In this document: one piece after another, positions 5,501 to 35,103 of the stretch
How positions within the stretch are numbered: the first letter of the stretch is position 1
Layout: each line of letters starts with the position of its first letter
Assembly (NCBI GenBank): GCA_963802255.1
Contig: CAWDHY010000001.1
Location: forward strand, 299,842 to 363,841
Source of the DNA: Candidatus Magasanikiibacteriota bacterium
Lineage (GTDB): Bacteria > Patescibacteriota > Patescibacteriia > Magasanikbacterales > GWA2-37-8
Direction: 5' to 3'
DNA: 64,000 nt
The notes under the pieces: generated by a model
What the model was told of the DNA's origin: nothing
Databases searched by the model: none
Seen by the model: the letters and a program-made list of their open reading frames with translations, nothing else
Position numbers and translations under genes: made by a program

Positions 5501-8500
5501 TTTTGCTAATGACATTAACACTTGTACGCATGACGGTGCCGCTCTTATTATGGCGGATGGAAGTTATGAATTGGATACGGGTTCCGGAGGAGAATTTGGC
5601 GACACAAGTTTTATGCAGATGATACCATCAGCATTGCGTTGGGCTGACAACACATGGTATCAAGTCGTCTTAAAAAAGGGCGTTAAATCTCTGCCGAGCC
5701 AGTATGAATACAAAGGTGAGATTAAGACATTACCTGCTCAAAATTTAACCACTAATAATCCTTGTGGTACAGATACTGCGTATTGTTTTATTTTCAAGAC
5801 TGATACGCGTGATTGTAAATTAAATAAAGTGGTTGTTACTCCTTACACATACTGGACTTCCATTTTAGAGTCGCCAATTAAGTACAGAACTATAAAAAGT
5901 AATGCCGACGATTTAGGTTCAACATTATATTACAAGGGTAATGGTTTAAGCGACCAGCATTGTATCATGATGGATATGAGGAGTTTTAATTGGAGTTGGG
6001 ATACACAGCGCCCTCCATATTCAATGATTTATGGCACGAGCACTTTACAAAAATCGCAGGCCACGGCATTAGCAAATACTGTAGCGGTTGGGCTTGCAGA
6101 TCCGGAAAACGCAGTGATGATAAGAGCGACTGCAAGTAGGGGAGGTATTGGAAGTAGCGTGGAGCCACCATTGGTTGATCCGACCCTTTTTCCAATGGCA
6201 GGTTGGTGGAATTTTGATGAAGGTGGTACAGAAATAACTGATATTAGTGGAAATGGACATAACGGAGTAATTCAAGGTCCGGCAACATTTGTGCCGGGAA
6301 AAATTGGTTCCGCAATATATTTAAATGGTTCCGGTAATTATGTTCCGTTGGAGAGCCCATTGTCTTTACCGGGCGGGCTATCATCCCGCACAATGTGCGC
6401 TTGGGGAAAACCGGATGATATTTCCGGCGGATGGCGCTGGATGATGGCGTATGGCAGGGGAGCGTCCGGACAAGCAATGTTTATCGGAATGAACGGTACT
6501 AGTCTTGACGGCGGTGCGTATGGCGGCGGATATGACATCATTGTTAATGATTTTTGGTCGGCCGGTGTTTGGCGGCACATATGTTTAACCTATAATGGCA
6601 GTGTTGCAAGATTATACGCTGATGGGTCTGAAATTGGCCACTTAAATGTTGGTTGGAATTTACAATTACAAAAAGCATATATCGGCGCCCAAGTACATTC
6701 GAGTGCCAATGAGTTTTGGAAAGGCGCGATTGATGATTTAAGAATTTTTGACTACGCGTTGTCCCAGGAAGAAATCGTTGCTCTATATGAATATGGAAAT
6801 AGCGGTGGGATTTTGGGCGGAGGGGGCAGTGTCGAATATGAAGAAAAAATGGGACAGAGTCCTCTCACAATTGATTTATCTCGTCCGAAAGTTGTGGATT
6901 ACTGGCCGAAATGTTTAGAGGCTTGCACCAATGCTGAAATTGGAGCCAAATTTAATGTGATAATGGCCAACGCAAATATAGAAAATGCGGTAAAACTTGT
7001 CCGTTGTTTGGATGAAAATTGCGCGTCAACTGTTCCGGTTGGGGAGATAAGCAAAATTATTGATTCTGCCGACCGTCGTTATATTAAATTAAATTTTGGC
7101 ATATTGGGTGGAGAACTGGCGACTGATACTGTTTACGCCGTAACTTTATCAACCACCGGTACAAGTACGGCAATATCAAATTATCAACTTTGGTCGGGAG
7201 CAAGCGCAACGGATGAATACGCTAAGGCAAAACCAATGCAAGAGGAATTTATCTGGCGTTTTAAAACAAAAAAAGAAAAGTGTGTTTTAGACAAGGTCAA
7301 TATTATCCCGGCTCTCTTCCAGGCGGTTTTCATTAACGACAGACATGTATATTCTTCTGAAGCTCGTTCCGCCCCGGACGCATGTGATCCAAAGGGACAG
7401 AAGCTGGATACATGGACAATTGATTGGGACTGGTCTTCTTCTGCTTCGGATGTTGCCACGGTTCAAGAATTTAAAACAAAAGGAAGAAGTCCTGTGTGTA
7501 ATAATAACTGTGTAAGAAAAGGAAGTGATATAACTTCTGACGCTTTGACGTTTGAACCGCTGTGCGGGAATGCAAGCGTGGAGGCAGGTGAAGATTGCGA
7601 CCCGCCATTTATCAGCGTTGTCGGAAGTGTCACTACCACTGCTTGTACATTAAATTGTTTACGACCGGGCAATGAGTTTACGGCGACTTGTGGTAATGGC
7701 ACAGTAGAACCTCTTCTCGGTGAAGAATGTGATCCGGCTGACGATGCTACAAAAGTCGGTTGTTCAAAAAATTGTTTGCATATCGGTTCAGTGGCGGCTA
7801 CCGGGGCTGAAGATGTAACAGCCTCAATTTGCGGTAATGGGAAAATTGGTATGGGTGAAGAGTGTGATTTAGGCATGGCGGTTGATTATACAAAATCAAC
7901 GTCTTCATTATATTGCTCTCCGTATTGCTTGCATCTTGGAACAAGTTTATCTTCCGGATGGTGCGCGAATAATACCAGCACTCTATTTGGCCAGGTTGAA
8001 TATTTATCCGCTTGCGCAAAATCAAAAAGCCAATGCGGAGATGGTATACGCGACCCGTCTGAAGACCCGGGCTGTGATTGCGGAGAGGGAAATGTGCCAA
8101 ATTCAAGCCACATGTGCGTTTGTAACGGTGTAATGATATCGGCTAACGACCTTGACCAATGTCTAAAAGTAAATCCCGCCTGCTCTGCAAAATGTCTCGG
8201 CAATTCTCGTTTGCTGGCTGAATGCAATCCGTTGTCTACTACTACTGTTGGTGGCATTACAGTTGTTCGCGCCACCGAAGGATGTGGTGACAATTCTCAA
8301 TATCAAGGGTCATCTTTAATGTATTCCGTACCATCCCTTTGCGGTGATGGTATTGTCGGAATTGGCGAGGAAAATGATTGTGAGTCAGGATTTTTATTTA
8401 CTCACTCGCTGACTGACCCATGGACACTCGCTACCGGCGTCGGCCTAGGCGCGGTGGTGACTTCGTCAAGCGGTATTCCTTCACAGGTAACCAATATTCA

Positions 8501-11500
8501 AGGAACCGGTTCGTCAACTGTTAACAGTAAAAATTATCAAAAATCCGGAACCGGGAAATTTGAAATTATTTGCGGGTACAGCACGGATATTGAATGCCAA
8601 GATTTACTCGGCGACGAATACGGTTTAGCGAGCAATTCTTGCTGTATGCCGCGGCCGTGGCTTATCAGTACGTATCCGGATAAAAATGATATAAATCCGC
8701 CGTATGATATTTGTCCCAACACATATATTGAAGCTAAATTTAATCATCTTATAGATGAAAACACACTGATAAATCAAATATATGTTGCTCGAGGCTACAC
8801 AACTCCTTCTTGTCCAACCGGCACAGTTGATGTAACACCGTTTGTGTCTGATTATGAAATTTTGGTCATTGATAAAGGGCCTTGGTACAAGCGTTTATGG
8901 CACGGCATTGTTAATTGGTTTGCCAGAATTTTCGGCGACGAAACATCTGCCGCGCCGATTGAAATTACCGCCACAAAATATTGTTCCGAAGGAGTTCTTC
9001 CGCCGGCAAAAGTTGCAGTTGAGGGATCAATGTCCGGCGCTAATACCACTTCCAGCGTAATGATACGCTTAAACACTCCGCTTGCCACTAGCACTGATTA
9101 TGTGGTTATTTTCCGGCCTGGTGTTAAAGACGTGCGAGGGGTAAGTGTTGCCACTTCAACACAATGGAAATTTATTACCGGTCCGAAAATATGTGAGTTA
9201 AATCGGGTGGCAATTAACCCGGACAATTATATGTTTAACCGATCCGGCAGTTCAAGCAGTTTTGTTGCCAGTTCAAGCGCTATAAACGGGCAGTCAATTC
9301 AGCCGGTAGAAGGATACAGATGGGAATATGAATGGAGCCCGATGCAAAGCGATGTGGTATCGTTAACCAACACCACGGACACAATAAATATAGTGACCGC
9401 AAAAAATAGAAACGGTGAGCTGGATCTTCTGGCAACAGCGAAATTTACGGAAAATTGGTTTTTCTTTGATTCGCCGTCGTTATCCGGTAAATCACGTATA
9501 GTTGTATTTCTGTGCGAAAATCCATGGCCGTCTTCTTCAACCATAGATTTTCCGTTTAAAGAAATTGAATACGATTTCACCACATATTATTGTATGGACA
9601 AAGGCAGTCCGGGATTTGCTGATGACATGCCTTACGTAACTTCTTCACGTGTGTGGATACAGGAAACGAATCCTTTTAAAAAGCGATATTTATTTACGAA
9701 TTCCGATAATAAAGATGCCATTGGCATGCAGGTGTTTTATAATCCGGAACATTTGTCTGTTAGCGAGTGGTATACCGCTCAGGGTTTTCGCGGGAATATG
9801 AATTCACTAAAAATAGACGGCTATGACGCGATAAGCGATGGAAATAATTATTATGTTGATGCTTTAAGCTTTTCCAATGCCAATAATATCTATTCAAATA
9901 TTTATCAATTCAGTATTAACAATGACGCCACTAATGATGGTAAGGAGATATTTAAACAGATGATGGAGAACATTAAATTTAACAGCGGATTAATTAATGA
10001 TAAATATTGCGCTGTCGGTTATGGTCCAATGGATACCGTTCGCTATGATATGGCCTGTGAAAGCGATTTGGATTGCCTCGCTAACATGGAAGCGTTTAAA
10101 AAAGTTTATCCAACTTCAACTTTAAGTGCTTATAATTGTTTAAATCAAAAAGATAAGTTGCAAAGAAATTATCAGCGGTTGAAAGATATGAGACAGGCGG
10201 TTTCAATAATAAATTATGGCAGAGGAGCGATTGCTGTTTTGCCGATGGATAGTGTGAATTATGGAAAAACGCCGGATATCACAAAAAAGGGAAATGACCT
10301 GACGATCACCGATTCAAACGGAATATCACTGGTCGGTGGCGCTTTAAAACTATCCGGCTCCGGCCGTTTAGAAACAGAGGCGTCTATAGGATTAATGGTC
10401 GGCTCAAAATCATTTACCGTGACCGGTAAAATAAATACAGTATTGGATGAAGCTACTCGTTTAATGCGAATTACTAATAGTACCGGCGATGGTATGAGTT
10501 TGGAACTATCTAATGAAGGGAAAATGACTGTGTGTAATGGTCCAGAAGTCGGTACTATGTGTATATCGCCGGCTAGCTGTTCAACCATGCCGTCATTAAA
10601 CGATGGATCTTGGCATAATTTTGCATTAGATTTTACTCAGTCATCACCTGATAAAATAAGGGTTTATATTGATGGAGAATTGGCCTGCAGCAGCACCGGA
10701 TCATTCCCCAGCATGCCATCATCAGCTAAATTAGTAATTGGTGGCTATTCTAGTGACAATATATTTGATGGTTCTATTGATGATCTACGAATTTATACAC
10801 GTGATTTGTCCGAAGACGAAATATCCGCCTTATACGCAAATAATTTACCATATAAAGGCAGTTATCCGACAATAAACGAAAATACATATCTTAATGGGCA
10901 GGCAATTAGCGTCTGGGATAATTCTTGGACACAGCTTGGGACGGAAGCGGGTATGTCATTACCGATTGATCCGATAAACAGGCTGGTGCAAAGCGGCACC
11001 TGTTTCCAAAAGACCGGTATTTCTTACAGTGCGTGTTACAAAGATTCAGATTGCGCCGTTATACCGCAACTTAGTAATAGACAAAGTTATTGGTCGGCTG
11101 ATTATGAAACGACCGATGAAGGTGTTTTGAAAAATAATGCTGCCATTGAGGGTTCTGTAGATTATGGCGATGGCAAAGGGCACGGCAAGGCCTTTGAATT
11201 TTCCGGTGATTCAACAGCAAAAGTCATGGCAGCGCATAATAATGCATATAATAGCAGTCAATTCACTGTTTCCGCCTGGATTTATCCGACAAAAAAGAAT
11301 ACGGCCACAATTATTAAACATGGAGGTACGGATGGTAATGGCATTAGCCAGGGTGGTTTTGCTCTTGAATATAGCGGTTTTTGGACCGGTGTCGTCGGCT
11401 CAAGCGTTGTCACCAGATTTAATAATGGAACAGTCAGGTTTGCTTTTTTCACCACATCAACATCAGAGACTAAATATTATTCTTTGGATTCAAACGGCAC

Positions 11501-13778
11501 GCCTTTAACTCTTAATCAGTGGCACCATATTTTGGTAAGATTTGATGGCAATGGCACTGTCTATATGTATATTGATGGCGTCAACCAGAATACGCAAATG
11601 AGATTGCCAAATGGCGCGCTGTTCACGATTGACCCGGGTGATCCGTTTCCACAGATGGCTGCTAATACCGGTAATATTGAAATTGGTCAAAGTTTTAACG
11701 GCAAGATTGATAATGTGGCATTTTATGATTCTTTATTAATAAATTACGATCCAAATAATGAGGTGAACAATTTATACAAAGGGCTATGCATATTACACGA
11801 TCCAACTACTGGCTGGAGTGCTGAAGATCGCCGGTTTAGCTTTGCCTGCAATACCACTTCATACGCATATAGATATCAATACGCGAGTTCAACAGGTGCG
11901 TTTTTGCTGCGGGCTAATATGGAAAAATTCGCGAATATCTGGCCAGGCAATATGAACACGTTTAACAATGACTTCTTCGGCGGTTATGTGGATATATCAA
12001 CCGGAGTTTGTGCCGGAAATAATGAAATTTCTTCGCCGTACAATTTAGTCTGCGGAGACGGTGTGCTTGGCGGAACGGAGACATGCGACCCGCCGGGAAA
12101 AGTTGAAATAAATTCGTCTCTTTGTCCGGTTGGTCAGGCAATTAAGAAAACATGTTCTAGTAACTGTACCTGGGGAGCAACAACGAATATTAATTGTTAT
12201 TTGGCCACTGGTGGTTCTTGTGGAGACGGCAAATTGCAGACAGCAGCAGGTGAGAAATGCGATGATGGAGCGTTGAATGGCCAGAGCGGGCGGTGCGCAA
12301 CTGACTGCCAAGGCACTGTAAATACTTGCGGTAATGGGACTCTTGATGTAAGCGAGTTTTGCGACACTGTAACGGCCACGGGACAGTGCGAATTTATGCC
12401 AGGTGTAGAGCGAGAAATTGATCCGAAAGGCGAACCAATGTTTTATTTTTTGGTGGATTTGACTGGGACGATGGGGAGTGCTTTTCCCGGCGCTCCGTCC
12501 CCGGGGACAAGAGTAGCTATGGTAAAGTATTCACTGCCTCTTATTGCTGAACGTTTTAGTAATCCTGATTCGCGAGCTAAAATAGGAATCGGATCATATA
12601 ATTGCCCCGTTAATTCTTTTCATAATAAAGATTGGCTGCCAGGTACTAAGGGATATTTCACGTCTTCTCAAGTTCAGACAGCTATTTCGACCATGGTTCA
12701 GCAAACTGGACAAAATACCGACAGCGTTTTTGACTGGTTCAGGTATACAATTTTACCGATACTAAAAAGCGGAGTAGACGATGGCAAACCAATTAACCTT
12801 GTTTATATTACCGATGGAGGCAAAGCGGGATCGTGCACGCCTTATGGCGCTTTGTGTCCTACTGATAAAATTGCCGCTTTGTACAATGACTTAGGAGTTG
12901 TTACGCATATTATCGGAGTTGGTAATGTAGTGGAATGTGACCGTGAAATTATGGCAAACGCGGGACATGGACAATATCTTCAAATTACTGAGGGCGCTGA
13001 CTCATTAGCTGAGGCAATGATTGAAATATATAAAAAACCCTGCGAACAATATTCGCAGTATAACGGTTATTCCTGTCGTTGGGACTGTAAAGGACCTGGC
13101 GGATATTGTGGTGATGGAATTTTGCAATTTGAAAGTGGCGAGCAATGTGAAGCTGACCAGTCGTGTACAGTGTCTCCGGGCGGTGAATCTGGAATGCAGA
13201 AATGCGAAAGTTGCCAGTTGGGTGAGTGTGAAGCGATTGTTGAAGTTGAAGTTCCGGGACAGTGCGGGAATGATATTGTAGAGGAAGAAGAGGCCTGTGA
13301 TCGCGGTGATATGAATGGTGAGGCTTGTAATCCTTTATATCCGCAAAAGAAATGCACTTATTGTTCGTATGATTGCCGAAATGTAATTACTGTTGATAAT
13401 CTTTGTGGAAATGGTTTTCTGGACTCAGGAGAAGTGTGCGACCCTGAACATTGGTTAACCAATGGTTATAAACGTCAATATTTTATGGCTGATCATTGCG
13501 TACCGTGTAAAAATGATTGTTCGGGCTGGGATTATTCCATTGCCGAAGATAACACTCCGCAAAGTAATTGTGCGGATATTTGGGGATATTGCGGCAATGG
13601 CATAAAGGAATCGGTTTATTATGGGGAAATTTTGACGCCTTTTGAAAGTTGCGATGGAACCGATGGAGTAAATAATTGTCCTGAATGCTCGGAAACTTCC
13701 CCGGCTACTCCATTTAAGAAATGTAATTTTAATTGTTCATGTGGTTGTTCCGCTTTTATGCCTTTCTTTTCAATGTAA
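2586..13778 (+). CDS. giant (3730 aa) surface adhesin-like protein: T4SS-pilin-like N-module, poly-Gly linker, IPT/TIG repeats, three LamG/concanavalin-like domains, ~12 CGDG/EECD Cys-rich repeats, vWA domain
   Basis: Single uninterrupted ORF of 11.2 kb starting 10 nt after the previous stop. The N-module LGLPDTDIRVIAARIIRVALGFLGIIALVLILYAGFVWMTAGGNEENIQKAKRILMNAVIGLIIILSAYAIV is followed by G14. TIG-like motifs include SGQFFG, IGENFG, ITGKNFG. LamG signatures WNFDEGGTEITDISGNGHNG...DDLRIF, ...DDLRIY and KIDNVAFYD are present. Cys-rich repeats take the form CGNGTVEPLLGEECD. A vWA/MIDAS-like FYFLVDLTGTMGS...ITDGG is present. Confidence 0.7.
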   Translation: MMQKLNWKKLLLVTLFLAGIGVFLLAAVSLAQTNVPDLGLEPVGQELGLPDTDIRVIAARIIRVALGFLGIIALVLILYAGFVWMTAGGNEENIQKAKRILMNAVIGLIIILSAYAIVSFVLSSLLSATTGGDGGGGGGGGGGGGFSKVFYITSMPGNDFGCGARNLHPVIRFNKPVDLTTIENNLVLRKKIDASPANGEWVFQVVNSVPITSAVVFNPVGDCGIEGHNDCLDANSTYQIFFANATNIKSQSPDILNLNCNVGDYKNQCKNDPSVEFATGDGVDVENPTITIINPFDGQSFGQGQSVSVEVIFTDNFGLQDLALFINSSSVPVDTASITGCQKSGTSTLVWPTGSSPTGTYALTALATDFAANYSTDIRNISLVPLHCFDSLLNFGETIAGPPACGDGCGNCSGEPCTQNSDCASGWCEDGICIDKIRINLFDPLDGAASSTYVTISGQFFGDDGGHVYFTKQGGGWTEAFIVSCGAGIDNWTPYQLVVKVPPNADDGPIKVAHASAPSDGSDDITRRYTDITDDTSWGYYKNFNVNDVIKPGLCALIPSYGPPYSSTTLIGENFGATNNSAQDKVMFSSSTALIRDWASRTVTARVPALGTGPVAVKILNEGEESNAVRFDVRESLDNDTPVIESINPEDGAKGEYITITGKNFGNNVGKVLFKFEGEGEAKYGSFDFPADCEGSTWSNNQIIVKFPEDEPVVVDHDYSVQIQRSSDAKIGPIGAYFQLHSGNPAPGICKLSPSSGPVPFNPSSSMKIYGEYYQRGGSTSTPYFWQLEASTTTIEDRVEATDIIQESDQQAELRPPEDSQTGPVVMHRASENKTGNSLPFTVYNCVENNNICYSPGTRCCTSGADAGACKLEFDLCAGQTRSTGYMWRFSTGPFPPVPKVMERCDAGTDAGENLPSPSPDIRWTGLGNFDHFNACRTSLVNIEFTMKMDPATINATNVQIFKCVSSSVTTTFANDINTCTHDGAALIMADGSYELDTGSGGEFGDTSFMQMIPSALRWADNTWYQVVLKKGVKSLPSQYEYKGEIKTLPAQNLTTNNPCGTDTAYCFIFKTDTRDCKLNKVVVTPYTYWTSILESPIKYRTIKSNADDLGSTLYYKGNGLSDQHCIMMDMRSFNWSWDTQRPPYSMIYGTSTLQKSQATALANTVAVGLADPENAVMIRATASRGGIGSSVEPPLVDPTLFPMAGWWNFDEGGTEITDISGNGHNGVIQGPATFVPGKIGSAIYLNGSGNYVPLESPLSLPGGLSSRTMCAWGKPDDISGGWRWMMAYGRGASGQAMFIGMNGTSLDGGAYGGGYDIIVNDFWSAGVWRHICLTYNGSVARLYADGSEIGHLNVGWNLQLQKAYIGAQVHSSANEFWKGAIDDLRIFDYALSQEEIVALYEYGNSGGILGGGGSVEYEEKMGQSPLTIDLSRPKVVDYWPKCLEACTNAEIGAKFNVIMANANIENAVKLVRCLDENCASTVPVGEISKIIDSADRRYIKLNFGILGGELATDTVYAVTLSTTGTSTAISNYQLWSGASATDEYAKAKPMQEEFIWRFKTKKEKCVLDKVNIIPALFQAVFINDRHVYSSEARSAPDACDPKGQKLDTWTIDWDWSSSASDVATVQEFKTKGRSPVCNNNCVRKGSDITSDALTFEPLCGNASVEAGEDCDPPFISVVGSVTTTACTLNCLRPGNEFTATCGNGTVEPLLGEECDPADDATKVGCSKNCLHIGSVAATGAEDVTASICGNGKIGMGEECDLGMAVDYTKSTSSLYCSPYCLHLGTSLSSGWCANNTSTLFGQVEYLSACAKSKSQCGDGIRDPSEDPGCDCGEGNVPNSSHMCVCNGVMISANDLDQCLKVNPACSAKCLGNSRLLAECNPLSTTTVGGITVVRATEGCGDNSQYQGSSLMYSVPSLCGDGIVGIGEENDCESGFLFTHSLTDPWTLATGVGLGAVVTSSSGIPSQVTNIQGTGSSTVNSKNYQKSGTGKFEIICGYSTDIECQDLLGDEYGLASNSCCMPRPWLISTYPDKNDINPPYDICPNTYIEAKFNHLIDENTLINQIYVARGYTTPSCPTGTVDVTPFVSDYEILVIDKGPWYKRLWHGIVNWFARIFGDETSAAPIEITATKYCSEGVLPPAKVAVEGSMSGANTTSSVMIRLNTPLATSTDYVVIFRPGVKDVRGVSVATSTQWKFITGPKICELNRVAINPDNYMFNRSGSSSSFVASSSAINGQSIQPVEGYRWEYEWSPMQSDVVSLTNTTDTINIVTAKNRNGELDLLATAKFTENWFFFDSPSLSGKSRIVVFLCENPWPSSSTIDFPFKEIEYDFTTYYCMDKGSPGFADDMPYVTSSRVWIQETNPFKKRYLFTNSDNKDAIGMQVFYNPEHLSVSEWYTAQGFRGNMNSLKIDGYDAISDGNNYYVDALSFSNANNIYSNIYQFSINNDATNDGKEIFKQMMENIKFNSGLINDKYCAVGYGPMDTVRYDMACESDLDCLANMEAFKKVYPTSTLSAYNCLNQKDKLQRNYQRLKDMRQAVSIINYGRGAIAVLPMDSVNYGKTPDITKKGNDLTITDSNGISLVGGALKLSGSGRLETEASIGLMVGSKSFTVTGKINTVLDEATRLMRITNSTGDGMSLELSNEGKMTVCNGPEVGTMCISPASCSTMPSLNDGSWHNFALDFTQSSPDKIRVYIDGELACSSTGSFPSMPSSAKLVIGGYSSDNIFDGSIDDLRIYTRDLSEDEISALYANNLPYKGSYPTINENTYLNGQAISVWDNSWTQLGTEAGMSLPIDPINRLVQSGTCFQKTGISYSACYKDSDCAVIPQLSNRQSYWSADYETTDEGVLKNNAAIEGSVDYGDGKGHGKAFEFSGDSTAKVMAAHNNAYNSSQFTVSAWIYPTKKNTATIIKHGGTDGNGISQGGFALEYSGFWTGVVGSSVVTRFNNGTVRFAFFTTSTSETKYYSLDSNGTPLTLNQWHHILVRFDGNGTVYMYIDGVNQNTQMRLPNGALFTIDPGDPFPQMAANTGNIEIGQSFNGKIDNVAFYDSLLINYDPNNEVNNLYKGLCILHDPTTGWSAEDRRFSFACNTTSYAYRYQYASSTGAFLLRANMEKFANIWPGNMNTFNNDFFGGYVDISTGVCAGNNEISSPYNLVCGDGVLGGTETCDPPGKVEINSSLCPVGQAIKKTCSSNCTWGATTNINCYLATGGSCGDGKLQTAAGEKCDDGALNGQSGRCATDCQGTVNTCGNGTLDVSEFCDTVTATGQCEFMPGVEREIDPKGEPMFYFLVDLTGTMGSAFPGAPSPGTRVAMVKYSLPLIAERFSNPDSRAKIGIGSYNCPVNSFHNKDWLPGTKGYFTSSQVQTAISTMVQQTGQNTDSVFDWFRYTILPILKSGVDDGKPINLVYITDGGKAGSCTPYGALCPTDKIAALYNDLGVVTHIIGVGNVVECDREIMANAGHGQYLQITEGADSLAEAMIEIYKKPCEQYSQYNGYSCRWDCKGPGGYCGDGILQFESGEQCEADQSCTVSPGGESGMQKCESCQLGECEAIVEVEVPGQCGNDIVEEEEACDRGDMNGEACNPLYPQKKCTYCSYDCRNVITVDNLCGNGFLDSGEVCDPEHWLTNGYKRQYFMADHCVPCKNDCSGWDYSIAEDNTPQSNCADIWGYCGNGIKESVYYGEILTPFESCDGTDGVNNCPECSETSPATPFKKCNFNCSCGCSAFMPFFSM
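2978..3020 (+). repeat. (GGC/GGA/GGT)n simple repeat encoding a 14-residue poly-Gly linker
   Basis: ggcggtgatggcggcggcggaggcggtggcggcggcggcggagga read directly. The protein reads GGDGGGGGGGGGGGGG. Confidence 0.6.
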
Positions 13779-21863: not shown

Positions 21864-23015
21864 TTATTTATATAGAGGAAATTTTTTAACCAGTTCGCCA
21901 ACTTTTAAACGGATAATATTCAGCCTTTCAGTATCTTGAAAATGTGTAATTGTTTCATTAATCCATTCTGCGATTTGGCGCATTTCATTTTCTTTCATTC
22001 CTCTTGTGGTGAGCGCCGGTGTACCGAGCCGGATGCCGGACGGATCCATTGGGGAGCGCGGATCATTTGGCACCATATTTTTATTTACAGTAATACCGGC
22101 TTCATCCAAAGCGATTTGCGCTTCTTTCCCTGAAATATTTTTATTGGTTAAGTCAATCAACAATAAATGGTTGTCAGTCTGCCCGAAACAAATATTGAAA
22201 TCAAGTTTTTTTAATCCTTCTTCCAAAACCTTTGCGTTTTTTATTACTTGTGACGCATATTCTTTAAATTCCGGTTCCAGAGCTTCTTTAAACGCGACCG
22301 CTTTTGCGGCGATATTATTTTCATGCGGTCCGCCCTGAAAACCCGGGAATACGGACTTATCAATCGCTTTGGCGAATTTTTGTTTGCACATTATCATTCC
22401 ACCGCGTGGTCCGCGCAAAGTTTTGTGGGTAGTGGTAGTTACGATATCAAAAATAGGCACGGGGTTTTCCATTACTTCACCGGCAATAAGCCCGGCGATA
22501 TGAGCGATATCTGCCATGGTAACTGCGCCAACCTCGTCAGCAATTTCTTTAATTTTTTTCCAATCAATAATGCGCGAGTAGGCGCTGTATCCGGCCAAAA
22601 TTATTTTTGGCTTGTGTTCAATTGCTGTCGCGCGTAATTCATCATAGTTGATTAAGCCATCCGTATCGGTACCGTAACGGATAAAATTATACAGCTTGGC
22701 CATATAGGTGACCGGATGCCCGTGCGTTAAATGTCCGCCGTGCGCCAGGTCCATGCCAAGAACAGTATCGCCAGGCTGAAGCAGAGCAAAATATACGGCG
22801 ATATTAGCCGGCGCGCCGGATAACGGTTGGACGTTCACGTGTTCGGCGCCGAACAGTTCTTTAGCGCGTTCAATCGCCAGTGTCTCTACCTCGTCGATGT
22901 ATTCACAGCCCCCATAATATCGCTTGCCAGGATAACCTTCGGAATATTTATTGGTCGCGATTGAACCGAGTGCTTCCAAAACCGCCGGTGAAACAAAATT
23001 TTCCGACGGAATCAT
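21864..23015 (-). CDS. glyA: serine hydroxymethyltransferase, main body. The N-terminal 29 codons lie upstream (to 23101) in another frame; apparent frameshift in an A7 tract.
   Basis: [38 protein letters not shown]...[12 protein letters not shown] is a classic SHMT. See the finding on the frameshift at 23037-23043. Confidence 0.9.
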
Positions 23016-23105: not shown

Positions 23106-24686
23106 TTAGATTTTTTTAATCATGTAGGTATTTTGCAATTTGTAACCGAGTTTTCTGTAATAACCCCGTACGCCAACGCCGGAAATCACCGCTATTATAT
23201 CTGCCTTGGCTTTGATGGCCAATTTTTCCGCTCCTTTTATTAATTTTACCCCCATACCCTTGTGTTGTGAAGCAATGGCATTTTTAGTGCCGATTTTTAG
23301 CATCTGGCCGTAGGTATGAAGTTCACGGATAAAGGCCGGGTATAGACCGTTTTTATCAATACGCAAACGGCAAAAAGCATAAACCACCTGTCGTTTGGCA
23401 TCTTCAAAACTTAAAAAATATTCAATTCCGCCCGAGGCATTGTATTTATCAATAAATAATTTCGGACGCGATAATTTAATATTGGCATGTCCGACTTCAC
23501 GGCAACGCAAACAATTGCAGTGTAAACCGCGGCGTAGCATTTCCGCCTGAATCACTTGGCGCAAATTTGTAACTCTGTTTCCGGCAACAATGTGATGCCC
23601 GGGAATGTCGCGGATAAGACGCGAAATTCGAACATAGCGCGGGATGGCCGCTTTGAAGTTTATAAGAATATCAATTAATTTTTTATCGTTGTATGGCTTA
23701 TATTTTCCGGATTTAACCCAGCGGTAAAGCGGAGATTTTTTTACTACCGTGCACGGATAAATTTTTATCATGTCAGGACGGTAATCAGGATTATCAAAAA
23801 TTCCCGCTAACATTTTTGCATCTTTGCCCGGCGTTGATCCGGGAAGCTGTGGCATAAGATGAAAATCAACTTTAAATCCGAATTTTTTTAAAAGTCCGGT
23901 GGCGCGTATAGTTTCCGCTGTATCGTGTCCGCGCTTTACTAATTTTAAAATTTTGTCATCAGTGGTTTGGACGCCAAGTTCAATTCTGGTACAGCCAAGC
24001 TCGCGCATAATCAAAATATTTTTTTCAGTAATATGATCCGGCCGTGTTTCCAAAGTTAGCCCGATAATTCTGTGTTTTGCAGTTTCATTTTTCTTTTGGG
24101 CTGACTGTAAAATTTTTCTAATTTTTTCTACGCCTCCTTTTTTTTCTCCTTTAATGCCATTGGCCGCTTCAAAACATCGCAATACAAACCAATATTGATA
24201 CTCAAGCGGATACGCATTCCATGTCCCGCCTTTTATAATCAGTTCAATTTTATCGGTTGGGTGTCCGTTTTCGGCCAATGTTTTAATACGCTCATGTACT
24301 TGCCGGTAAGGGTCAAATTGTAAAGATGATGCCCGCGCTGCCGCCGGTTCGTCGCTGATATAACTTTTCGGCATTTCTTTTTCATCCGGACAATAAATGC
24401 ACCGGCCCGGGCATTCGTGCGGCTCAGTCAGAACGGTCACGATCGCGACGCCGGAAAGTGTCCGGACCGCGCGTTTGGTTAGTAAAGTTTCCAATAAAAA
24501 AGATTTTTTTATCTTGCCTTTAGCGAGCATGGCGTGATATACTCGGAGCAAGTCAGTTTTGCGGGATAAATCTTCTTTGCTTTTCGCACTGCGCATTTCC
24601 GAACGCAAAACAGACGAAAATTCATCAGATGTTTTCGGGACTTTTTTCAGTAATTTATAAATTATTTTTTCGCTCAGGTCAATCAT
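23106..24686 (-). CDS. elp3: Elp3-family radical-SAM / GNAT tRNA U34 carboxymethyl-modification enzyme homolog
   Basis: Radical-SAM Elp3 core HECPGRCIYCPDEKEMPKSYISDEPAAARA...DPYRQ...IKGGTW. C-terminal GNAT QHKGMGVKLIKGAEKLA...VISGVGVRGYYRKLGYKL. The ORF is open up to a TTG at 24797; the ATG at 24686 or 24596 is more plausible because the extension overlaps the divergent gene. Confidence 0.85.
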   Translation of the reverse strand: MIDLSEKIIYKLLKKVPKTSDEFSSVLRSEMRSAKSKEDLSRKTDLLRVYHAMLAKGKIKKSFLLETLLTKRAVRTLSGVAIVTVLTEPHECPGRCIYCPDEKEMPKSYISDEPAAARASSLQFDPYRQVHERIKTLAENGHPTDKIELIIKGGTWNAYPLEYQYWFVLRCFEAANGIKGEKKGGVEKIRKILQSAQKKNETAKHRIIGLTLETRPDHITEKNILIMRELGCTRIELGVQTTDDKILKLVKRGHDTAETIRATGLLKKFGFKVDFHLMPQLPGSTPGKDAKMLAGIFDNPDYRPDMIKIYPCTVVKKSPLYRWVKSGKYKPYNDKKLIDILINFKAAIPRYVRISRLIRDIPGHHIVAGNRVTNLRQVIQAEMLRRGLHCNCLRCREVGHANIKLSRPKLFIDKYNASGGIEYFLSFEDAKRQVVYAFCRLRIDKNGLYPAFIRELHTYGQMLKIGTKNAIASQHKGMGVKLIKGAEKLAIKAKADIIAVISGVGVRGYYRKLGYKLQNTYMIKKI

Positions 24687-25412
24687 ATGGATAAGCGTAA
24701 AGCACAAGAAATTGTACGTCAAACACGCCAATTTTACAATACCGCCGCCAAGGAGTGGGATATTAGCCGAGGCGCTCCCACTCGCATTAAAAAACAAATT
24801 ATCCGGCCGGTTAAAAAGGGGATGCGAGTCTTAGATTTAGGTTGTGGTAACGGGCTAATGGCTAATACTGTAATGAGTCTCGGCGGTCAGTATGTTGGCG
24901 CGGATATTTCCGGGAAACTTATCGCGCTGTGTAAAAAACGATATGCTTCATATATCAAAACCAAGCAGGCGGAATTTGTAACAGCCGATGCCGCCAAGTT
25001 GCCGTTCAAAAAAAATTCATTTGATTTTGCTGTTTCTTTTGCCGTGATGCACCACATTCCTTCGGCTGAAATGAGAGTGAAATTTTTACGGGAATTGTAT
25101 CGCGTGATGAAACCCGGGGCGACGGCAAAAATTGACAATTGGAATTTGCTTGAGAATTGGAGCTGTAAAAAATATTATATCAATCGCCAGTTGAAAAATT
25201 TTCCACCCTCTCATGATTATGGTGATGTCTATATTCCATGGAAGGCGACCGGCGGAAAAACAATACCGCGCTACATTCATATTTTTTCAGATGCAGAATT
25301 AAAATCGGTTGCCAAATTAGCCGGATTCAAAAAAATAAAAATTGAATATTTCAACCGCGCCGGAATAAAAACAAAAAATGGTGAAGCGCAGATACTTACT
25401 GTAAAGAAATAA
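24687..25412 (+). CDS. class I SAM-dependent methyltransferase, Trm9-like
   Basis: Motif I VLDLGCGNG. Trm9-type post-II motif FDFAVSFAVMHHIPSAEMRVKFLRELYRVMKPGATAKIDNW (compare Trm9 FDFAISIAVVHH...RR...GG...W). Confidence 0.65.
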   Translation: MDKRKAQEIVRQTRQFYNTAAKEWDISRGAPTRIKKQIIRPVKKGMRVLDLGCGNGLMANTVMSLGGQYVGADISGKLIALCKKRYASYIKTKQAEFVTADAAKLPFKKNSFDFAVSFAVMHHIPSAEMRVKFLRELYRVMKPGATAKIDNWNLLENWSCKKYYINRQLKNFPPSHDYGDVYIPWKATGGKTIPRYIHIFSDAELKSVAKLAGFKKIKIEYFNRAGIKTKNGEAQILTVKK

Positions 25413-25415
25413 AAA

Positions 25416-25444
25416 CATCCGCCACTGTTGGCGGATGTTTTTTT
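25416..25444. terminator. bidirectional intrinsic terminator
   Basis: catccgccactgttggcggatg hairpin followed by ttttttt, between convergent genes. Confidence 0.7.
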
Positions 25445-29541: not shown

Positions 29542-29615
29542 GCACGCCTAGCTCAGCTGGTTAGAGCACCTCGTTTACACCGAGGGGGTCAGGGGTTCGA
29601 ATCCCTTGGCGTGCA
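29542..29615 (+). tRNA. tRNA-Val (anticodon TAC)
   Basis: gcacgcc acceptor arm, agctcagctggttagagc D-arm, anticodon loop tTTACAc, T-arm ggggttcgaatccc, 3' ggcgtgc + a. No encoded CCA. Confidence 0.85.
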
Positions 29616-29746
29616 CTTAATGCGATCCAATTGTTTGGATCGCAAGTGGATTCGAACGCCGGAGCGATGTTTGGCGAGTTAGAGGACGAGCCAAACCGCG
29701 AGGCGGTGGCCAGGCAAAATTTTTGGAAGAAAATTTTAGCCGAGGC

Positions 29747-33357: not shown

Positions 33358-35103
33358 TTAACCCTTCACTTCCGGCCTGACGTCAGAGCCACGGTCGTAA
33401 TTGGTCAGTGTGTTATCAACAGCGCCTCGTGATAAATTCAATTCTTTTCCAACAGTATCGTCTTTCGCATTGTATGAAGCACTCTTAATAAGTGTAATTT
33501 TTTTGCCGATTTGCGAAGCACTAGGATTTACCGCAACTTCAAAATATAGCCCGATATCGCCGGATGCAGGCACCAGATTATAGCTCCAGCTTACATTATT
33601 GCCGGTTTGATCATATTTAAGCTCCGGCCCGATAGTAACGCTTTGTTTTCCGGTGAACTCAACGCCGTCGGCAAGTTTCAGGTTAAATGAATTTCCGGCA
33701 ATCGCGTTTGTTCCATTGGATATTTCCACGAATATCCAATATTTTGTAATTTCCCCCACAGTAGGCGGTAATGGACCGCGACCCAATTGGTCTCCGTCGT
33801 TTGTGTAATATACAGGGTGAATATTCCAGCTTATCTGCGTTGCCAACGGTAATCTGACGGTTTCACTGCCCTCAACGATAAATTTTTGGTCAGGCACGTC
33901 GGCGAGTTCGGCTTCTGATTGAATTTTTATTTCCAGCTGTGTCAAGCCGGCGGCTTTAAAAAATGACAAAAGTTTTAAGTTAATCACAAATTCATCGGAA
34001 CTTCCGGATGACCCGTCGGCTAAAGCGGTGCGCGTTTTTTTGTCCGCGATTAAACTGTTGCCTTCCACAGTCAAATTATTTGCGTTTGCCGTTGCTTTTA
34101 AATCAACGATACCCGGCGTCGGGGTGATTCGCAGGCGGATATTTTTGAGTGAATAGGCGCTGGAATTGTTCCAATATACGCGTACCGGTAATGTATCGCC
34201 GCCATCGGCAAATGCTTTTTGTTCTAAAAGATGTACACCGCTTTTTATTTCAGGATAAAAAACTGATAATTTTCTTTCCAATGTGGCTTGTCGTATCGGT
34301 GTGTTATTGACCGTGACCAATATATCAAAACTTTCTGTGTATTCGCCCGAGTTGTCCGGCGCAATTATTACCCCGGCAATGGCTTTTGTTTCACCGGGCG
34401 CGAGATAAATATTTTTTAAAACATTTTCATCGGCAAATTTATTTTCCGCTGGAGGTACGATTGATATGTTTTGTATCGGTTGGGCGCCGTTATTTTTTAA
34501 AATAAGATTAACAGGGAGTTCGCGTCCGGGAAAAGAAGTGCTTGCCATCGTAATCTCAGCGCTGAGAATAGTGCCCGCTGGTCTGAATAAAGCGGCGCCG
34601 ATTTTTTGTTCCTTTGTTTTTGAACCTTCCGGCAAGTAACTGAGATAGGCGGTAATTTTCTCATCCATATTCGGTTCGGCAAAAATCAATCCATATATTT
34701 CCACTTGTCCGGCACCGCCCGCTTCAATTTTATCTAAATTGAATGTTGAGTTAGATGAAAAAATATCTTCCGAGGTTTTTGATCTGTCCACCACAAATCC
34801 CACAGGCAGGTGTACTCCCATGACCGCCTGATTCAAGTTCTTCTTGCTTCTGTTTTTGTAATCAATAGTTAAACGAATTTCGTCTCCGCTTTGCAGACGT
34901 TCAGTACCAAAAGAAAAAGTTAAATCAATTTCACTTGTTATGGTCGGTTTCCAGAAAAAAAAGAAAATACTCGAACAAAGCATTACAAGTGCCAGACCGA
35001 GAAGGGCTAAATCAAAAACAAACAGTTTTTTAGCGTGTTTGTAAATTCCGTGATAACGCTTGTGATAATGCGAATGTAAAAATTTATATATAGTTTTCAT
35101 CAT
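33358..35103 (-). CDS. membrane-anchored large extracytoplasmic protein (hypothetical surface protein)
   Basis: N-terminal TM LFVFDLALLGLALVMLCSSIFFFFW, then a 500-aa beta-rich region. It lies immediately downstream of the HTH gene on the same strand. Confidence 0.45.
   Translation of the reverse strand: MMKTIYKFLHSHYHKRYHGIYKHAKKLFVFDLALLGLALVMLCSSIFFFFWKPTITSEIDLTFSFGTERLQSGDEIRLTIDYKNRSKKNLNQAVMGVHLPVGFVVDRSKTSEDIFSSNSTFNLDKIEAGGAGQVEIYGLIFAEPNMDEKITAYLSYLPEGSKTKEQKIGAALFRPAGTILSAEITMASTSFPGRELPVNLILKNNGAQPIQNISIVPPAENKFADENVLKNIYLAPGETKAIAGVIIAPDNSGEYTESFDILVTVNNTPIRQATLERKLSVFYPEIKSGVHLLEQKAFADGGDTLPVRVYWNNSSAYSLKNIRLRITPTPGIVDLKATANANNLTVEGNSLIADKKTRTALADGSSGSSDEFVINLKLLSFFKAAGLTQLEIKIQSEAELADVPDQKFIVEGSETVRLPLATQISWNIHPVYYTNDGDQLGRGPLPPTVGEITKYWIFVEISNGTNAIAGNSFNLKLADGVEFTGKQSVTIGPELKYDQTGNNVSWSYNLVPASGDIGLYFEVAVNPSASQIGKKITLIKSASYNAKDDTVGKELNLSRGAVDNTLTNYDRGSDVRPEVKG

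What the first reader, a model, noticed from the sequence alone, without database searches (positions are those of the whole stretch)
24596..25412. Trm9-like methyltransferase divergently paired with elp3, with abutting or overlapping start codons
The + strand gene has class I MTase motif I (VLDLGCGNG) and the Trm9-specific segment FDFAVSFAVMHHIPSAEMRVKFLRELYRVMKPGATAKIDNW (compare yeast Trm9 FDFAISIAVVHHWSTRERRVEVI...GG...W). Trm9 methylates Elp3-made cm5U to mcm5U. An elp3 / trm9-like divergent pair would be a compact two-gene wobble-uridine modification system. The elp3 ATG (24684-24686, - strand) and the trm9-like ATG (24687-24689) are back to back within catatg. Each promoter and RBS must therefore lie inside the other coding region, unless elp3 starts at the next ATG (24596).
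Basis: partly seen in the sequence, partly recalled or inferred. Interest (0 to 1): 0.75.

Follow-up and report, generated by a model that had tools for sequence, protein, structure and literature searches.

The report
Bacterial Elp3–Trm9 wobble-uridine gene pair
Two back-to-back genes in an uncultivated (Patescibacteria/CPR) bacterium encode the enzyme Elp3 and a bacterial relative of the eukaryotic methyltransferase Trm9. Together they probably build the tRNA wobble base mcm5U, and the Elp3 promoter is written inside the coding sequence of the partner gene.

Summary
elp3 (23106-24686, minus strand) and a 241-aa class I methyltransferase gene (24687-25412, plus strand) start on adjacent bases within CATATG.

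- The methyltransferase matches a fungal Trm9 profile over its full length (78 bits, against 15-31 bits for generic relatives).
- It keeps eight of the ten residues mapped in the Trm9 active site.
- It belongs to a large, generically annotated Patescibacteria family (546 clusters at 50% identity).
- The pair is conserved. 44 of 51 orthologue loci carry Elp3 nearby, all 7 Elp3-centred look-ups carry the methyltransferase, and the pair is the only linkage shared between Patescibacteria and Chloroflexota neighbourhoods.
- In Patescibacteria the two starts lie -9 to +6 nt apart in 19 of 25 loci.

New here: a sigma-70-type Elp3 promoter (-35 TTGTAA, 17 nt, -10 TACAAT/TATAAT) lies inside methyltransferase codons 9-18 and is held by synonymous-site constraint. 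Tyr17 is TAC in 21 of 22 divergent loci and in 0 of 5 non-divergent ones. Eight further loci show the same signature.

The mcm5U product and the promoter activity are inferred, not measured. I found no paper describing bacterial Trm9; Elp3-Trm9 clustering was known only from Sulfolobus. I file this as a new member of a known kind with an unusual, conserved gene layout.

The parts
23106..24686 (-). elp3: radical-SAM/acetyltransferase tRNA U34 carboxymethyl (cm5U) synthase, 526 aa. Radical-SAM motif CPGRCIYC at 24390-24413, Zn motif CNCLRC at 23502-23519, acetyl-CoA motif QHKGMG at 23250-23267.
   Evidence: TIGR01211 ELP3 scores 548 bits against a cut-off of 350, over the full length. The best solved structures are archaeal MinElp3 6iad (5e-126) and bacterial DmcElp3 5l7j (3.5e-114). 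The start is fixed by orthologue comparison.
24687..25412 (+). Trm9-family SAM-dependent methyltransferase, 241 aa, predicted to convert cm5U34 to mcm5U34. FYNTAAKEWDISR at 24732-24770 (Y17, R28), motif I at 24828-24854, MHHIPS at 25047-25064 (H122, H123), DNWNL at 25134-25148 (W152), IPWK at 25233-25244 (W185), RYIH at 25269-25280 (R195, H198).
   Evidence: Pfam gives only generic methyltransferase domains. The fungal Trm9 HMM scores 78.2 bits over the full length. hhalign against Trm9 gives E = 1.6e-33. Yarrowia Trm9 (5cm2) is the second-best PDB sequence hit and the best characterised one. The AF2 model has pLDDT 92.6.
24684..24689 (.). CATATG junction: the two start codons abut, so the intergenic length is zero.
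   Evidence: The gap is -9 to +6 nt in 19 of 25 Patescibacteria orthologue loci.
24711..24739 (-). Candidate Elp3 promoter embedded in methyltransferase codons 9-18: -35 TTGTAA (24739-24734), 17-nt spacer, -10 TACAAT (24716-24711). The predicted transcription start is near 24704 on the minus strand, giving a leader of about 18 nt antisense to methyltransferase codons 1-6.
   Evidence: The consensus scan matches 9 of 12 positions. Synonymous-site constraint: Ile9 is ATT in 20 of 20 loci, Tyr17 is TAC in 21 of 22 divergent loci and 0 of 5 non-divergent loci, against a 29% TAC background. The same signature appears in 8 of 8 further loci and is absent in L091, which has a 112-nt gap.
24651..24669 (+). 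Possible -10 region of the methyltransferase promoter inside Elp3 codons 6-12 (TAATTTATAAATTATTTT). The reverse complement of the Ile8-Ile9 codons gives an nATnAT hexamer 21-30 nt upstream of the methyltransferase ATG. This assignment is weak.
   Evidence: A -10-like hexamer occurs at about this position in most loci, but its quality varies and there is no synonymous constraint. The scan called no promoter here.
25411..25442 (.). Bidirectional intrinsic-terminator-like hairpin (14 pairs, flanked by A and T runs). It closes the methyltransferase transcription unit and that of the convergent glycosyltransferase gene.

Best explanation
This is a two-gene tRNA wobble-uridine module of a Patescibacteria (CPR, Magasanikbacteria-like) bacterium.

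Proposed chemistry.
- Elp3 uses radical-SAM chemistry and acetyl-CoA to add a carboxymethyl group to C5 of U34, giving cm5U.
- The adjacent 241-aa enzyme is a bacterial member of the Trm9 family. I predict that it uses SAM to methyl-esterify that carboxyl group, giving mcm5U.
- It would position the carboxylate with the same Arg/His pair (R28, H123) and stack the base on the same Trp residues (W152, W185) as yeast Trm9.
- No Trm112-like partner is linked to it. It may work alone.

Proposed expression.
- The two genes are transcribed divergently from start codons that touch.
- The Elp3 promoter (-35 TTGTAA, 17 nt, -10 TACAAT) is written on the opposite strand of methyltransferase codons 9-18.
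- The Elp3 mRNA therefore starts about 18 nt inside the methyltransferase gene.
- The methyltransferase promoter must lie in the first 15 or so codons of elp3.
- Translation needs no Shine-Dalgarno sequence, as for most genes of this genome.

Shown: gene identities by profile, conserved catalytic residues, conserved pairing and geometry, and synonymous-site constraint on the promoter hexamers.

Inferred: the mcm5U product, independence from Trm112, promoter activity and the transcription start site.
For: Elp3 identity: TIGR01211 scores 548 bits against a cut-off of 350. MinElp3 and DmcElp3 are the best solved structures. The motifs are intact.

Trm9 family membership:
- The fungal Trm9 HMM scores the window protein at 78.2 bits over profile positions 19-218. 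It scores the Patescibacteria family at 58-102 bits and generic relatives P0051-P0057 at 15-31 bits.
- This exceeds the best NCBIfam family, CpaM at 64 bits, which is itself far below its cut-off.
- hhalign gives probability 99.9 and E = 1.6e-33.
- Yarrowia Trm9 is the best characterised PDB hit, aligned over residues 27-221.
- Residues shown by mutagenesis to be needed in ScTrm9 (PMC4678810) map as R29/R28, D72/D73, H116/H123, W145/W152, W168/W185 and R241/R195. Y18/Y17 and H115/H122 also map. All are invariant or nearly so in the family.
- The top 150 of 546 family representatives all score 50-127 bits on the Trm9 HMM, and RYYH is the commonest form of the motif.
- JGI names one 78%-identical homologue TRM9.

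Pairing:
- 44 of 51 orthologue loci have Elp3 within the flank held, against 2 of 29 non-orthologue loci. Fisher p = 1e-12.
- All 7 Elp3-centred look-ups have the divergent methyltransferase.
- Three members with canonical Trm9 motifs are also paired with Elp3, in unrelated flanking contexts.
- Elp3 and the methyltransferase are the only gene families shared between the Patescibacteria and Chloroflexota neighbourhoods.

Promoter.

Scarcity of Shine-Dalgarno sequences.
Against: - There is no biochemical or tRNA mass-spectrometry data for any of these organisms.
- ScTrm9 Y243 is replaced by Ile/Leu/Val in this subfamily (I197). The equivalent of N271 is ambiguous because of a 10-residue loop insertion at residues 223-233.
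- The best PDB sequence hit is the uncharacterised 3sm3. That protein lacks the HH and RY.H motifs.
- Eukaryotic and haloarchaeal Trm9 need Trm112, and no Trm112 was found linked here. The rest of the genome was not searched.
- Two orthologue loci with full 4-kb flanks (L016, L032) have no Elp3 nearby.
- The loci are phylogenetically related, so the codon statistics overstate independence.
- The methyltransferase's own promoter is not resolved.
Confidence: 0.7

Rival explanations
1. The methyltransferase works with Elp3 on tRNA U34 but performs a different reaction from Trm9. It might methylate another atom of the cm5U or ncm5U side chain or of the nucleotide, or produce a derivative not yet described in bacteria.
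For: The gene pairing is as strong as under the main explanation. This subfamily departs from canonical Trm9 in three ways: EWDxSR in place of HFSxTR, RYIH in place of RYYH, and a 10-residue insertion before the last strand. Some archaea carry wobble-uridine derivatives other than mcm5U (ncm5U in Thermoplasma, reported in PMC5372719).
Against: The carboxylate-positioning pair (R28, H123) and the base-stacking Trp residues are invariant. Sister Patescibacteria subfamilies with fully canonical Trm9 motifs occupy the same position next to Elp3. This suggests one conserved function.
Confidence: 0.15
2. The methyltransferase is an unrelated small-molecule or protein methyltransferase (UbiE-like, as some pipelines annotate it). 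It merely shares a compact bidirectional promoter with elp3.
Against: UbiE/MenG models score far below their cut-offs: 61 bits against 158. The Trm9 profile scores higher and over the full length. Trm9 active-site residues outside the SAM-binding core are conserved. The linkage to Elp3 survives in two phyla and in unrelated flanking contexts, while every other neighbour changes.
Confidence: 0.07
3. The start codons do not really abut. Elp3 would start at the downstream ATG (24596), leaving a 90-nt intergenic promoter region.
For: An in-frame ATG exists at 24596, which is Met31. The TIGR01211 alignment begins at residue 34.
Against: Residues 1-30 are conserved as protein across orthologues, with EKII(Y)KLLKK five residues after an aligned Met. 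Many orthologues have no ATG near codon 31. L005 and L025 have no alternative start at all within 44 codons. The public gene call for this exact locus is also 526 aa (P0178). The N-terminus of archaeal Elp3 is functionally important for tRNA binding (PMC6367351).
Confidence: 0.05

Closest known systems
Eukaryotic Trm9-Trm112 (S. cerevisiae and Y. lipolytica, PDB 5CM2; ALKBH8 methyltransferase domain in animals)
   Same: Class I SAM methyltransferase of about the same size. Full-length profile match. Same N-terminal Y...R helix, HH motif, W after strand 4, (V/I)PW and RY.H motifs. It acts downstream of Elp3/Elongator.
   Different: Bacterial host. ScTrm9 Y243 is replaced by Ile. There is a loop insertion at residues 223-233. 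No Trm112 gene is linked, and two of the six hydrophobic Trm112-contact positions are polar here (V59 to R47, F78 to Q68, by alignment with PMC4678810). Activity is untested.
Archaeal Elp3-Trm9 gene cluster (Sulfolobus solfataricus) and Haloferax HVO_1032 Trm9-Trm112
   Same: Stand-alone Elp3 without Elp1, 2, 4, 5 or 6, with the Trm9 homologue gene clustered with elp3 (PMC2584109, PMC5372719, PMC6144793).
   Different: Those cases are archaeal and were reported as limited to Sulfolobales and Halobacteriales. Here the pair is bacterial (Patescibacteria and Anaerolineales). In Patescibacteria it is head-to-head with touching start codons and an embedded promoter.
Bacterial and archaeal stand-alone Elp3 (Dehalococcoides mccartyi DmcElp3, Methanocaldococcus infernus MinElp3)
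   Same: Same domain organisation and motifs. E = 3.5e-114 to 5e-126.
   Different: The papers on those enzymes that I read do not report a downstream methyltransferase or the final modification in bacteria.
CmoM (SmtA), the bacterial cmo5U-to-mcmo5U carboxyl methyltransferase
   Same: A bacterial class I methyltransferase that methyl-esterifies a wobble-uridine carboxyl side chain.
   Different: Only 30 bits against a cut-off of 366, so this protein is not a member. CmoM acts in the CmoA/CmoB pathway, not downstream of Elp3.

Membership tests
Trm9 (tRNA carboxymethyluridine(34)-5-O-methyltransferase) | Class I SAM-dependent methyltransferase fold with motif I and the SAM-binding Asp (ScTrm9 D72) | tested here: met
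Trm9 (tRNA carboxymethyluridine(34)-5-O-methyltransferase) | Full-length sequence-profile similarity to characterised Trm9, greater than to other characterised methyltransferase families | tested here: met
   The fungal Trm9 HMM gives 78.2 bits over profile positions 19-218, against 15-31 bits for generic relatives. The best NCBIfam hit is 64 bits. hhalign E = 1.6e-33. No curated Trm9 model with a cut-off was available, so this is a relative test.
Trm9 (tRNA carboxymethyluridine(34)-5-O-methyltransferase) | Residues required for activity in ScTrm9 (R29, H116, W145, W168, R241), plus H115 and Y18 | tested here: met
   They map to R28, H123, W152, W185, R195, H122 and Y17. All are invariant or at least 90% conserved in the family. 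The residue list is from PMC4678810.
Trm9 (tRNA carboxymethyluridine(34)-5-O-methyltransferase) | ScTrm9 Y243 (third residue of the RYYH motif) | tested here: not met
   The window protein has RYIH, and its close subfamily has I/L/V at this position. RYYH is present in sister Patescibacteria subfamilies, in 49 of the top 150 representatives. The Y243A mutant of yeast Trm9 keeps about 10% activity.
Trm9 (tRNA carboxymethyluridine(34)-5-O-methyltransferase) | ScTrm9 N271 (recognises the uracil ring, located just before the last strand) | tested here: inconclusive
   An 11-residue loop, NRAGIKTKNGE (223-233), replaces the KDN turn. Either N223 or N231 could be the equivalent residue. Relative P0050 has KRN, as in Trm9.
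Trm9 (tRNA carboxymethyluridine(34)-5-O-methyltransferase) | Obligate activation by Trm112 | not tested
   No small conserved neighbour is shared among the loci. Only 64 kb of the genome was available. Interface positions are partly conserved (E96, V98, F112, D113) and partly polar (R47, Q68) by alignment.
Trm9 (tRNA carboxymethyluridine(34)-5-O-methyltransferase) | Functional link to Elp3/Elongator (the substrate cm5U is made by Elp3) | tested here: met
   Conserved adjacency: 44 of 51 orthologue loci, 7 of 7 Elp3-centred look-ups and 3 of 3 extra family members. It is the only linkage shared across the two phyla.
Trm9 (tRNA carboxymethyluridine(34)-5-O-methyltransferase) | Catalyses cm5U to mcm5U on tRNA | not testable with these tools
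   This needs enzymology or tRNA mass spectrometry.
Elp3 (TIGR01211) | Radical-SAM domain with a Cys triad, a C-terminal GNAT/KAT domain with an acetyl-CoA motif, and a curated model score above the cut-off | tested here: met
   548 bits against a cut-off of 350. CPGRCIYC, QHKGMG and the bacterial/archaeal Zn motif CNCLRC are present. PDB hits have E of 1e-126 to 1e-89.
UbiE/MenG quinone C-methyltransferase | Score above the curated cut-off of the family models | tested here: not met
   TIGR01934 gives 61 bits against 158. The PRK00216 models give 44-58 bits against 216-378.
CmoM (tRNA cmo5U34 methyltransferase) | Score above the curated cut-off | tested here: not met
   NF008264 gives 30 bits against 366.

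The most novel reading that the evidence does not exclude
Patescibacteria and some Chloroflexota make eukaryote-type mcm5U34 with a minimal pathway: stand-alone Elp3 plus a Trm112-independent Trm9. This pathway may replace the usual bacterial MnmE/MnmG route. The touching, mirror-image gene starts would form a bidirectional promoter that is entirely protein-coding. Its two mRNAs begin inside each other's genes and overlap in antisense by roughly 30-40 nt. That would mechanically couple, or make mutually exclusive, the expression of the two enzymes.
Probability: 0.3. Interest if true: 0.65.

Novelty: new member of a known kind. Interest (0 to 1): 0.55.

Why it matters
Bacterial Elp3 has been solved structurally, but the papers I read do not say which final modification its bacterial hosts make. 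A conserved Trm9 partner predicts mcm5U-type wobble bases in bacteria. I know of no report of mcm5U in bacteria.

The finding gives a two-gene system that could be tested directly in E. coli or in yeast trm9-delta. It also asks whether Trm9 can work without Trm112.

The family is large (546 clusters at 50% identity), and NCBI annotates it only as 'class I SAM-dependent methyltransferase', so the result is immediately useful for annotation.

The embedded promoter is a clean natural example of one DNA stretch under both protein-coding and promoter constraint. The wobble base of the conserved Tyr17 codon supplies the G of the TTG in the -35 element.

Tried and rejected
- The broad alignment A1 was too divergent for the genome scan. 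The narrower A2 worked.
I replaced it with 7 exact-protein look-ups.
- I considered that the cysH-like gene between elp3 and the methyltransferase in Anaerolineales might be a tRNA-thiolation enzyme. It is a bona fide PAPS reductase by its curated model (252 bits against a cut-off of 154), so I did not count it as part of the module.
- I considered that the SpoU-type gene upstream of the methyltransferase in Paceibacteria-like loci might be TrmL, the wobble 2'-O-methylase. TrmL scores only 28 bits, and the best hit (RlmB) is below its cut-off. This remains unresolved.
- I considered leaderless Elp3 mRNA. A -10-like hexamer 5-8 nt inside the methyltransferase gene is present in only some loci, so I rejected this in favour of the conserved hexamer at +25 to +30.
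- I looked for a matching synonymous constraint for the methyltransferase promoter within elp3 codons 8-9. The codons vary, so there is no constraint.
- Literature searches for bacterial Trm9, or for Elp3 in Patescibacteria, found nothing relevant.
Full report
**Observation.** The + strand reads CATATG at 24684-24689. ATG 24687 opens a 241-aa ORF that ends at 25412. On the minus strand, ATG 24686 opens a 526-aa frame that ends at 23106. The alternative ATG at 24596 is Met31 of the same frame.

Other divergent gene pairs in this window are 122-448 nt apart, so a zero-length spacer is exceptional here. The window comes from a Patescibacteria (CPR) genome. Identical proteins lie on a 628-kb contig, and the closest named homologues are Candidatus Magasanikbacteria.

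**Gene identities.** The minus-strand gene is Elp3. TIGR01211 scores 548 bits against a cut-off of 350, over the full length. The best solved structures are archaeal MinElp3 (5e-126) and bacterial DmcElp3 (3.5e-114). The radical-SAM Cys motif, the bacterial/archaeal Zn motif and the acetyl-CoA motif are all intact.

The plus-strand gene hits only generic methyltransferase domains in Pfam, and nothing above a cut-off in NCBIfam. The best hit there is CpaM at 64 bits, UbiE/MenG scores 61 bits against 158, and CmoM scores 30 bits against 366.

Against PDB sequences, the best hit is the uncharacterised M. mazei protein 3sm3. The second hit, and the best characterised one, is Yarrowia Trm9 (5cm2). 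Its alignment runs through the C-terminal VPW and RY.H motifs.

**Is it Trm9-like?** I collected named fungal Trm9 proteins and aligned them (A3).
- Their HMM scores the window protein at 78.2 bits over profile positions 19-218. It scores the whole Patescibacteria family at 58-102 bits. Generic Methyltransf_11 relatives found by the same search score only 15-31 bits, and only over the Rossmann core.
- Profile-profile comparison gives probability 99.9 and E = 1.6e-33 over 190 columns.
- Létoquart et al. (PMC4678810) showed by mutagenesis that ScTrm9 R29, D72, H116, W145, W168, R241, Y243 and N271 are needed, and they place Y18 and H115 in the active site.
- In the alignment these map to R28, D73, H123, W152, W185, R195, Y17 and H122. 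All are invariant or nearly so in the family.
- Y243 is Ile here.
- N271 is ambiguous, because an 11-residue loop (223-233) replaces the KDN turn.
- The top PDB hit, 3sm3, lacks the HH and RY.H motifs. Its higher score therefore reflects general similarity.

An exhaustive profile search finds 546 cluster representatives at E ≤ 1e-30. The top 150 all score 50-127 bits on the Trm9 HMM. Many carry fully canonical motifs (IAxHFSxTRxxxW, HHIPS, VWNL, IPWK, RYYH). Where they have names, they are Patescibacteria 'class I SAM-dependent methyltransferase'.

The window protein is therefore a slightly derived member of a large bacterial Trm9 family.

**Co-occurrence.** A scan of one genome per species returned 80 loci.
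- Of 51 loci with a full-length orthologue, 44 have Elp3 within the flank held. Five of the other seven are cut less than 900 nt upstream of the methyltransferase. Only L016 and L032 lack Elp3 with full 4-kb flanks.
- Of 29 loci holding only generic methyltransferases, 27 lack Elp3. The two exceptions are a truncated orthologue (L048) and a fragmentary case (L059). Fisher p = 1e-12.
- The orthologues fall into Patescibacteria and Chloroflexota (Anaerolineales). Clustering all neighbouring ORFs shows that Elp3 and the methyltransferase are the only families shared by both phyla's neighbourhoods.
- Starting instead from Elp3, 7 of 7 look-ups of other Patescibacteria Elp3 proteins show a divergent Methyltransf_11 gene of 218-242 aa immediately upstream.
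- Three further family members with canonical Trm9 motifs are also paired with Elp3, in unrelated flanking contexts: P0050, P0320 and P0311.
- No small Trm112-like gene is a conserved neighbour.

**Geometry and start codons.** In Patescibacteria the start-to-start distance is -9 to +6 nt in 19 of 25 loci, and CATATG occurs five times. Three loci have 67-104 nt. In four Paceibacteria-like loci elp3 lies downstream, in convergent orientation. In Chloroflexota the pair is divergent, with 16-163 nt between the starts. In other Chloroflexota loci the spacing is 850-1500 nt and a cysH gene is inserted.

The methyltransferase start is fixed: all homologues align from Met1, and there is no other start before motif I. 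The Elp3 start is fixed by three observations.
- A Met aligns five residues before a conserved EKII motif.
- In 10 loci that Met is the first start after an in-frame stop.
- In L005 and L025 no alternative start exists within -8 to +44 codons.

Public gene calls for Elp3 vary from 506 to 638 aa. Some gene callers evidently extend the ORF across the methyltransferase start.

**Expression signals.** Most genes in the window have no Shine-Dalgarno sequence: 26 of 35 have an anti-SD duplex weaker than -4 kcal/mol, with a median of -0.7. An RBS inside the partner gene is therefore not required.

A consensus scan found a minus-strand promoter, TTGTAA-17-TACAAT, at 24739-24711. This lies inside methyltransferase codons 9-18. 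Comparison across loci supports it.
- The -10 hexamer is the reverse complement of codons 9-10. These are ATT-ATA (giving TATAAT) in 16 of 16 Ile-Ile loci and ATT-GTA (giving TACAAT) in the 4 Ile-Val loci. Ile-Ile is encoded ATT-ATA only 11% of the time in these genomes.
- Ile9 is ATT in 20 of 20 loci. The equally conserved Ile of HHIPS uses ATT 10 times, ATA 5 times and ATC 4 times in the same loci.
- The -35 hexamer is the reverse complement of xxT-TAC-AAx. Tyr17 is TAC in 21 of 22 loci where elp3 is divergent, and TAT in all 5 loci where it is not. The background is 29% TAC. Fisher p = 7e-5.
- The C at the Tyr17 wobble position supplies the G of the TTG. The spacer is exactly 17 nt throughout.
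- In further loci not used to find the pattern (L083-L090), 8 of 8 show the same signature, including subfamilies with canonical Trm9 motifs. L091, with a 112-nt spacer, lacks it.

The loci are related, so these p-values overstate independence. Synonymous sites elsewhere in the gene are saturated, however.

The predicted Elp3 transcription start is near 24704 on the minus strand, giving a leader of about 18 nt antisense to methyltransferase codons 1-6.

The reciprocal promoter for the methyltransferase is unresolved. The Ile8-Ile9 codons of elp3 always give an nATnAT hexamer 21-30 nt upstream of the methyltransferase ATG. Its quality varies, there is no codon constraint, and the scan called nothing there. 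A bidirectional terminator hairpin (25411-25442) closes the methyltransferase unit.

**Mechanism proposed.** Elp3 forms cm5U34. That chemistry is established for archaeal Elp3 (PMC6367351, PMC13315578). The Trm9-family enzyme then methyl-esterifies cm5U to mcm5U, using the conserved Arg/His pair and Trp residues. The two genes are co-located so tightly that their promoters are coding sequence.

The product, the independence from Trm112 and the promoter activity are all inferences.

**Comparison with the literature.** Clustering of Elp3 and Trm9 genes was noted in Sulfolobus solfataricus. Archaeal Trm9 was described as restricted to Sulfolobales and Halobacteriales (PMC2584109, PMC5372719, PMC6144793). 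The papers on bacterial Elp3 that I read do not mention a methyltransferase partner. Searches for Elp3 with Patescibacteria/CPR, or for bacterial Trm9, returned nothing relevant. One JGI pipeline label, 'TRM9', exists for a homologue.

**Verdict.** This is a new (bacterial) member of a known kind of system, with an unusual and conserved head-to-head layout and an embedded promoter. Interest is moderate, at 0.55.

Noticed in passing
L035:2103-2846, L037:3194-3952, L043:3212-3955, L046:3219-3962 (all minus strand): In several Anaerolineales loci a bona fide cysH (PAPS reductase; NF002537 at 252 bits against a cut-off of 154) sits between elp3 and the Trm9-like gene, on the elp3 strand. Some loci also carry a small pair of ORFs there that look to me, from their sequences only, like a DUF433/PIN-type toxin-antitoxin pair.
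   Followed up: partly
L009:2034-2510, L015:3357-3824, L019:2893-3375, L027:729-1205: In Paceibacteria-like loci, where elp3 is convergent rather than divergent, a SpoU-family RNA 2'-O-methyltransferase of about 158 aa lies directly upstream of the Trm9-like gene. The best model is the RlmB C-terminal domain, below its cut-off, and TrmL scores only about 28 bits. Its specificity is unknown. This may be a small RNA-modification cluster.
   Followed up: partly
window, start regions of 35 genes (for example 33358-35103 minus strand, 19452, 53993, 61091): 26 of 35 genes lack a Shine-Dalgarno match. TATAAT-like boxes sit only a few nt upstream of several start codons. This suggests that very short-leader or leaderless mRNAs are common in this genome.
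   Followed up: partly
window 23106-24797 and homologues P0178-P0297: Public gene calls for these Elp3 proteins range from 506 to 638 aa. Some callers extend the ORF upstream across the methyltransferase start. In this window an upstream TTG at 24797 would add 37 non-conserved codons.
   Followed up: yes
window 29542-29616 (+): tRNA-Val(UAC) is the only tRNA gene in the window. It has U34. Valine tRNA(UAC) is, from memory, an Elongator substrate in yeast, so it is a candidate substrate here.
   Followed up: no
window 2586-13778 (+): A single 3730-aa ORF with an N-terminal hydrophobic segment. It may be a giant surface protein.
   Followed up: no
window 21864-23015 (-) and L083-L089: Serine hydroxymethyltransferase (glyA) follows elp3 on the same strand in the window and in 11 of the Patescibacteria loci from the genome scan. 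In some of the Elp3-centred loci a NUDIX or UMPH-1 gene lies between them. Pyruvate kinase and GT4 glycosyltransferases flank the pair. This synteny is lineage-specific and is not shared with Chloroflexota.
   Followed up: partly
L059:1838-3305: The Elp3 matches are split over several reading frames next to a partial methyltransferase match. This is either a decaying copy or assembly errors.
   Followed up: no
NCBIfam TIGR01211 description: The curated product name calls Elp3 a '5-carboxymethylaminomethyl modification' enzyme. The Elp3 papers read here describe formation of 5-carboxymethyluridine (cm5U). The propagated NCBI name may mislead.
   Followed up: no
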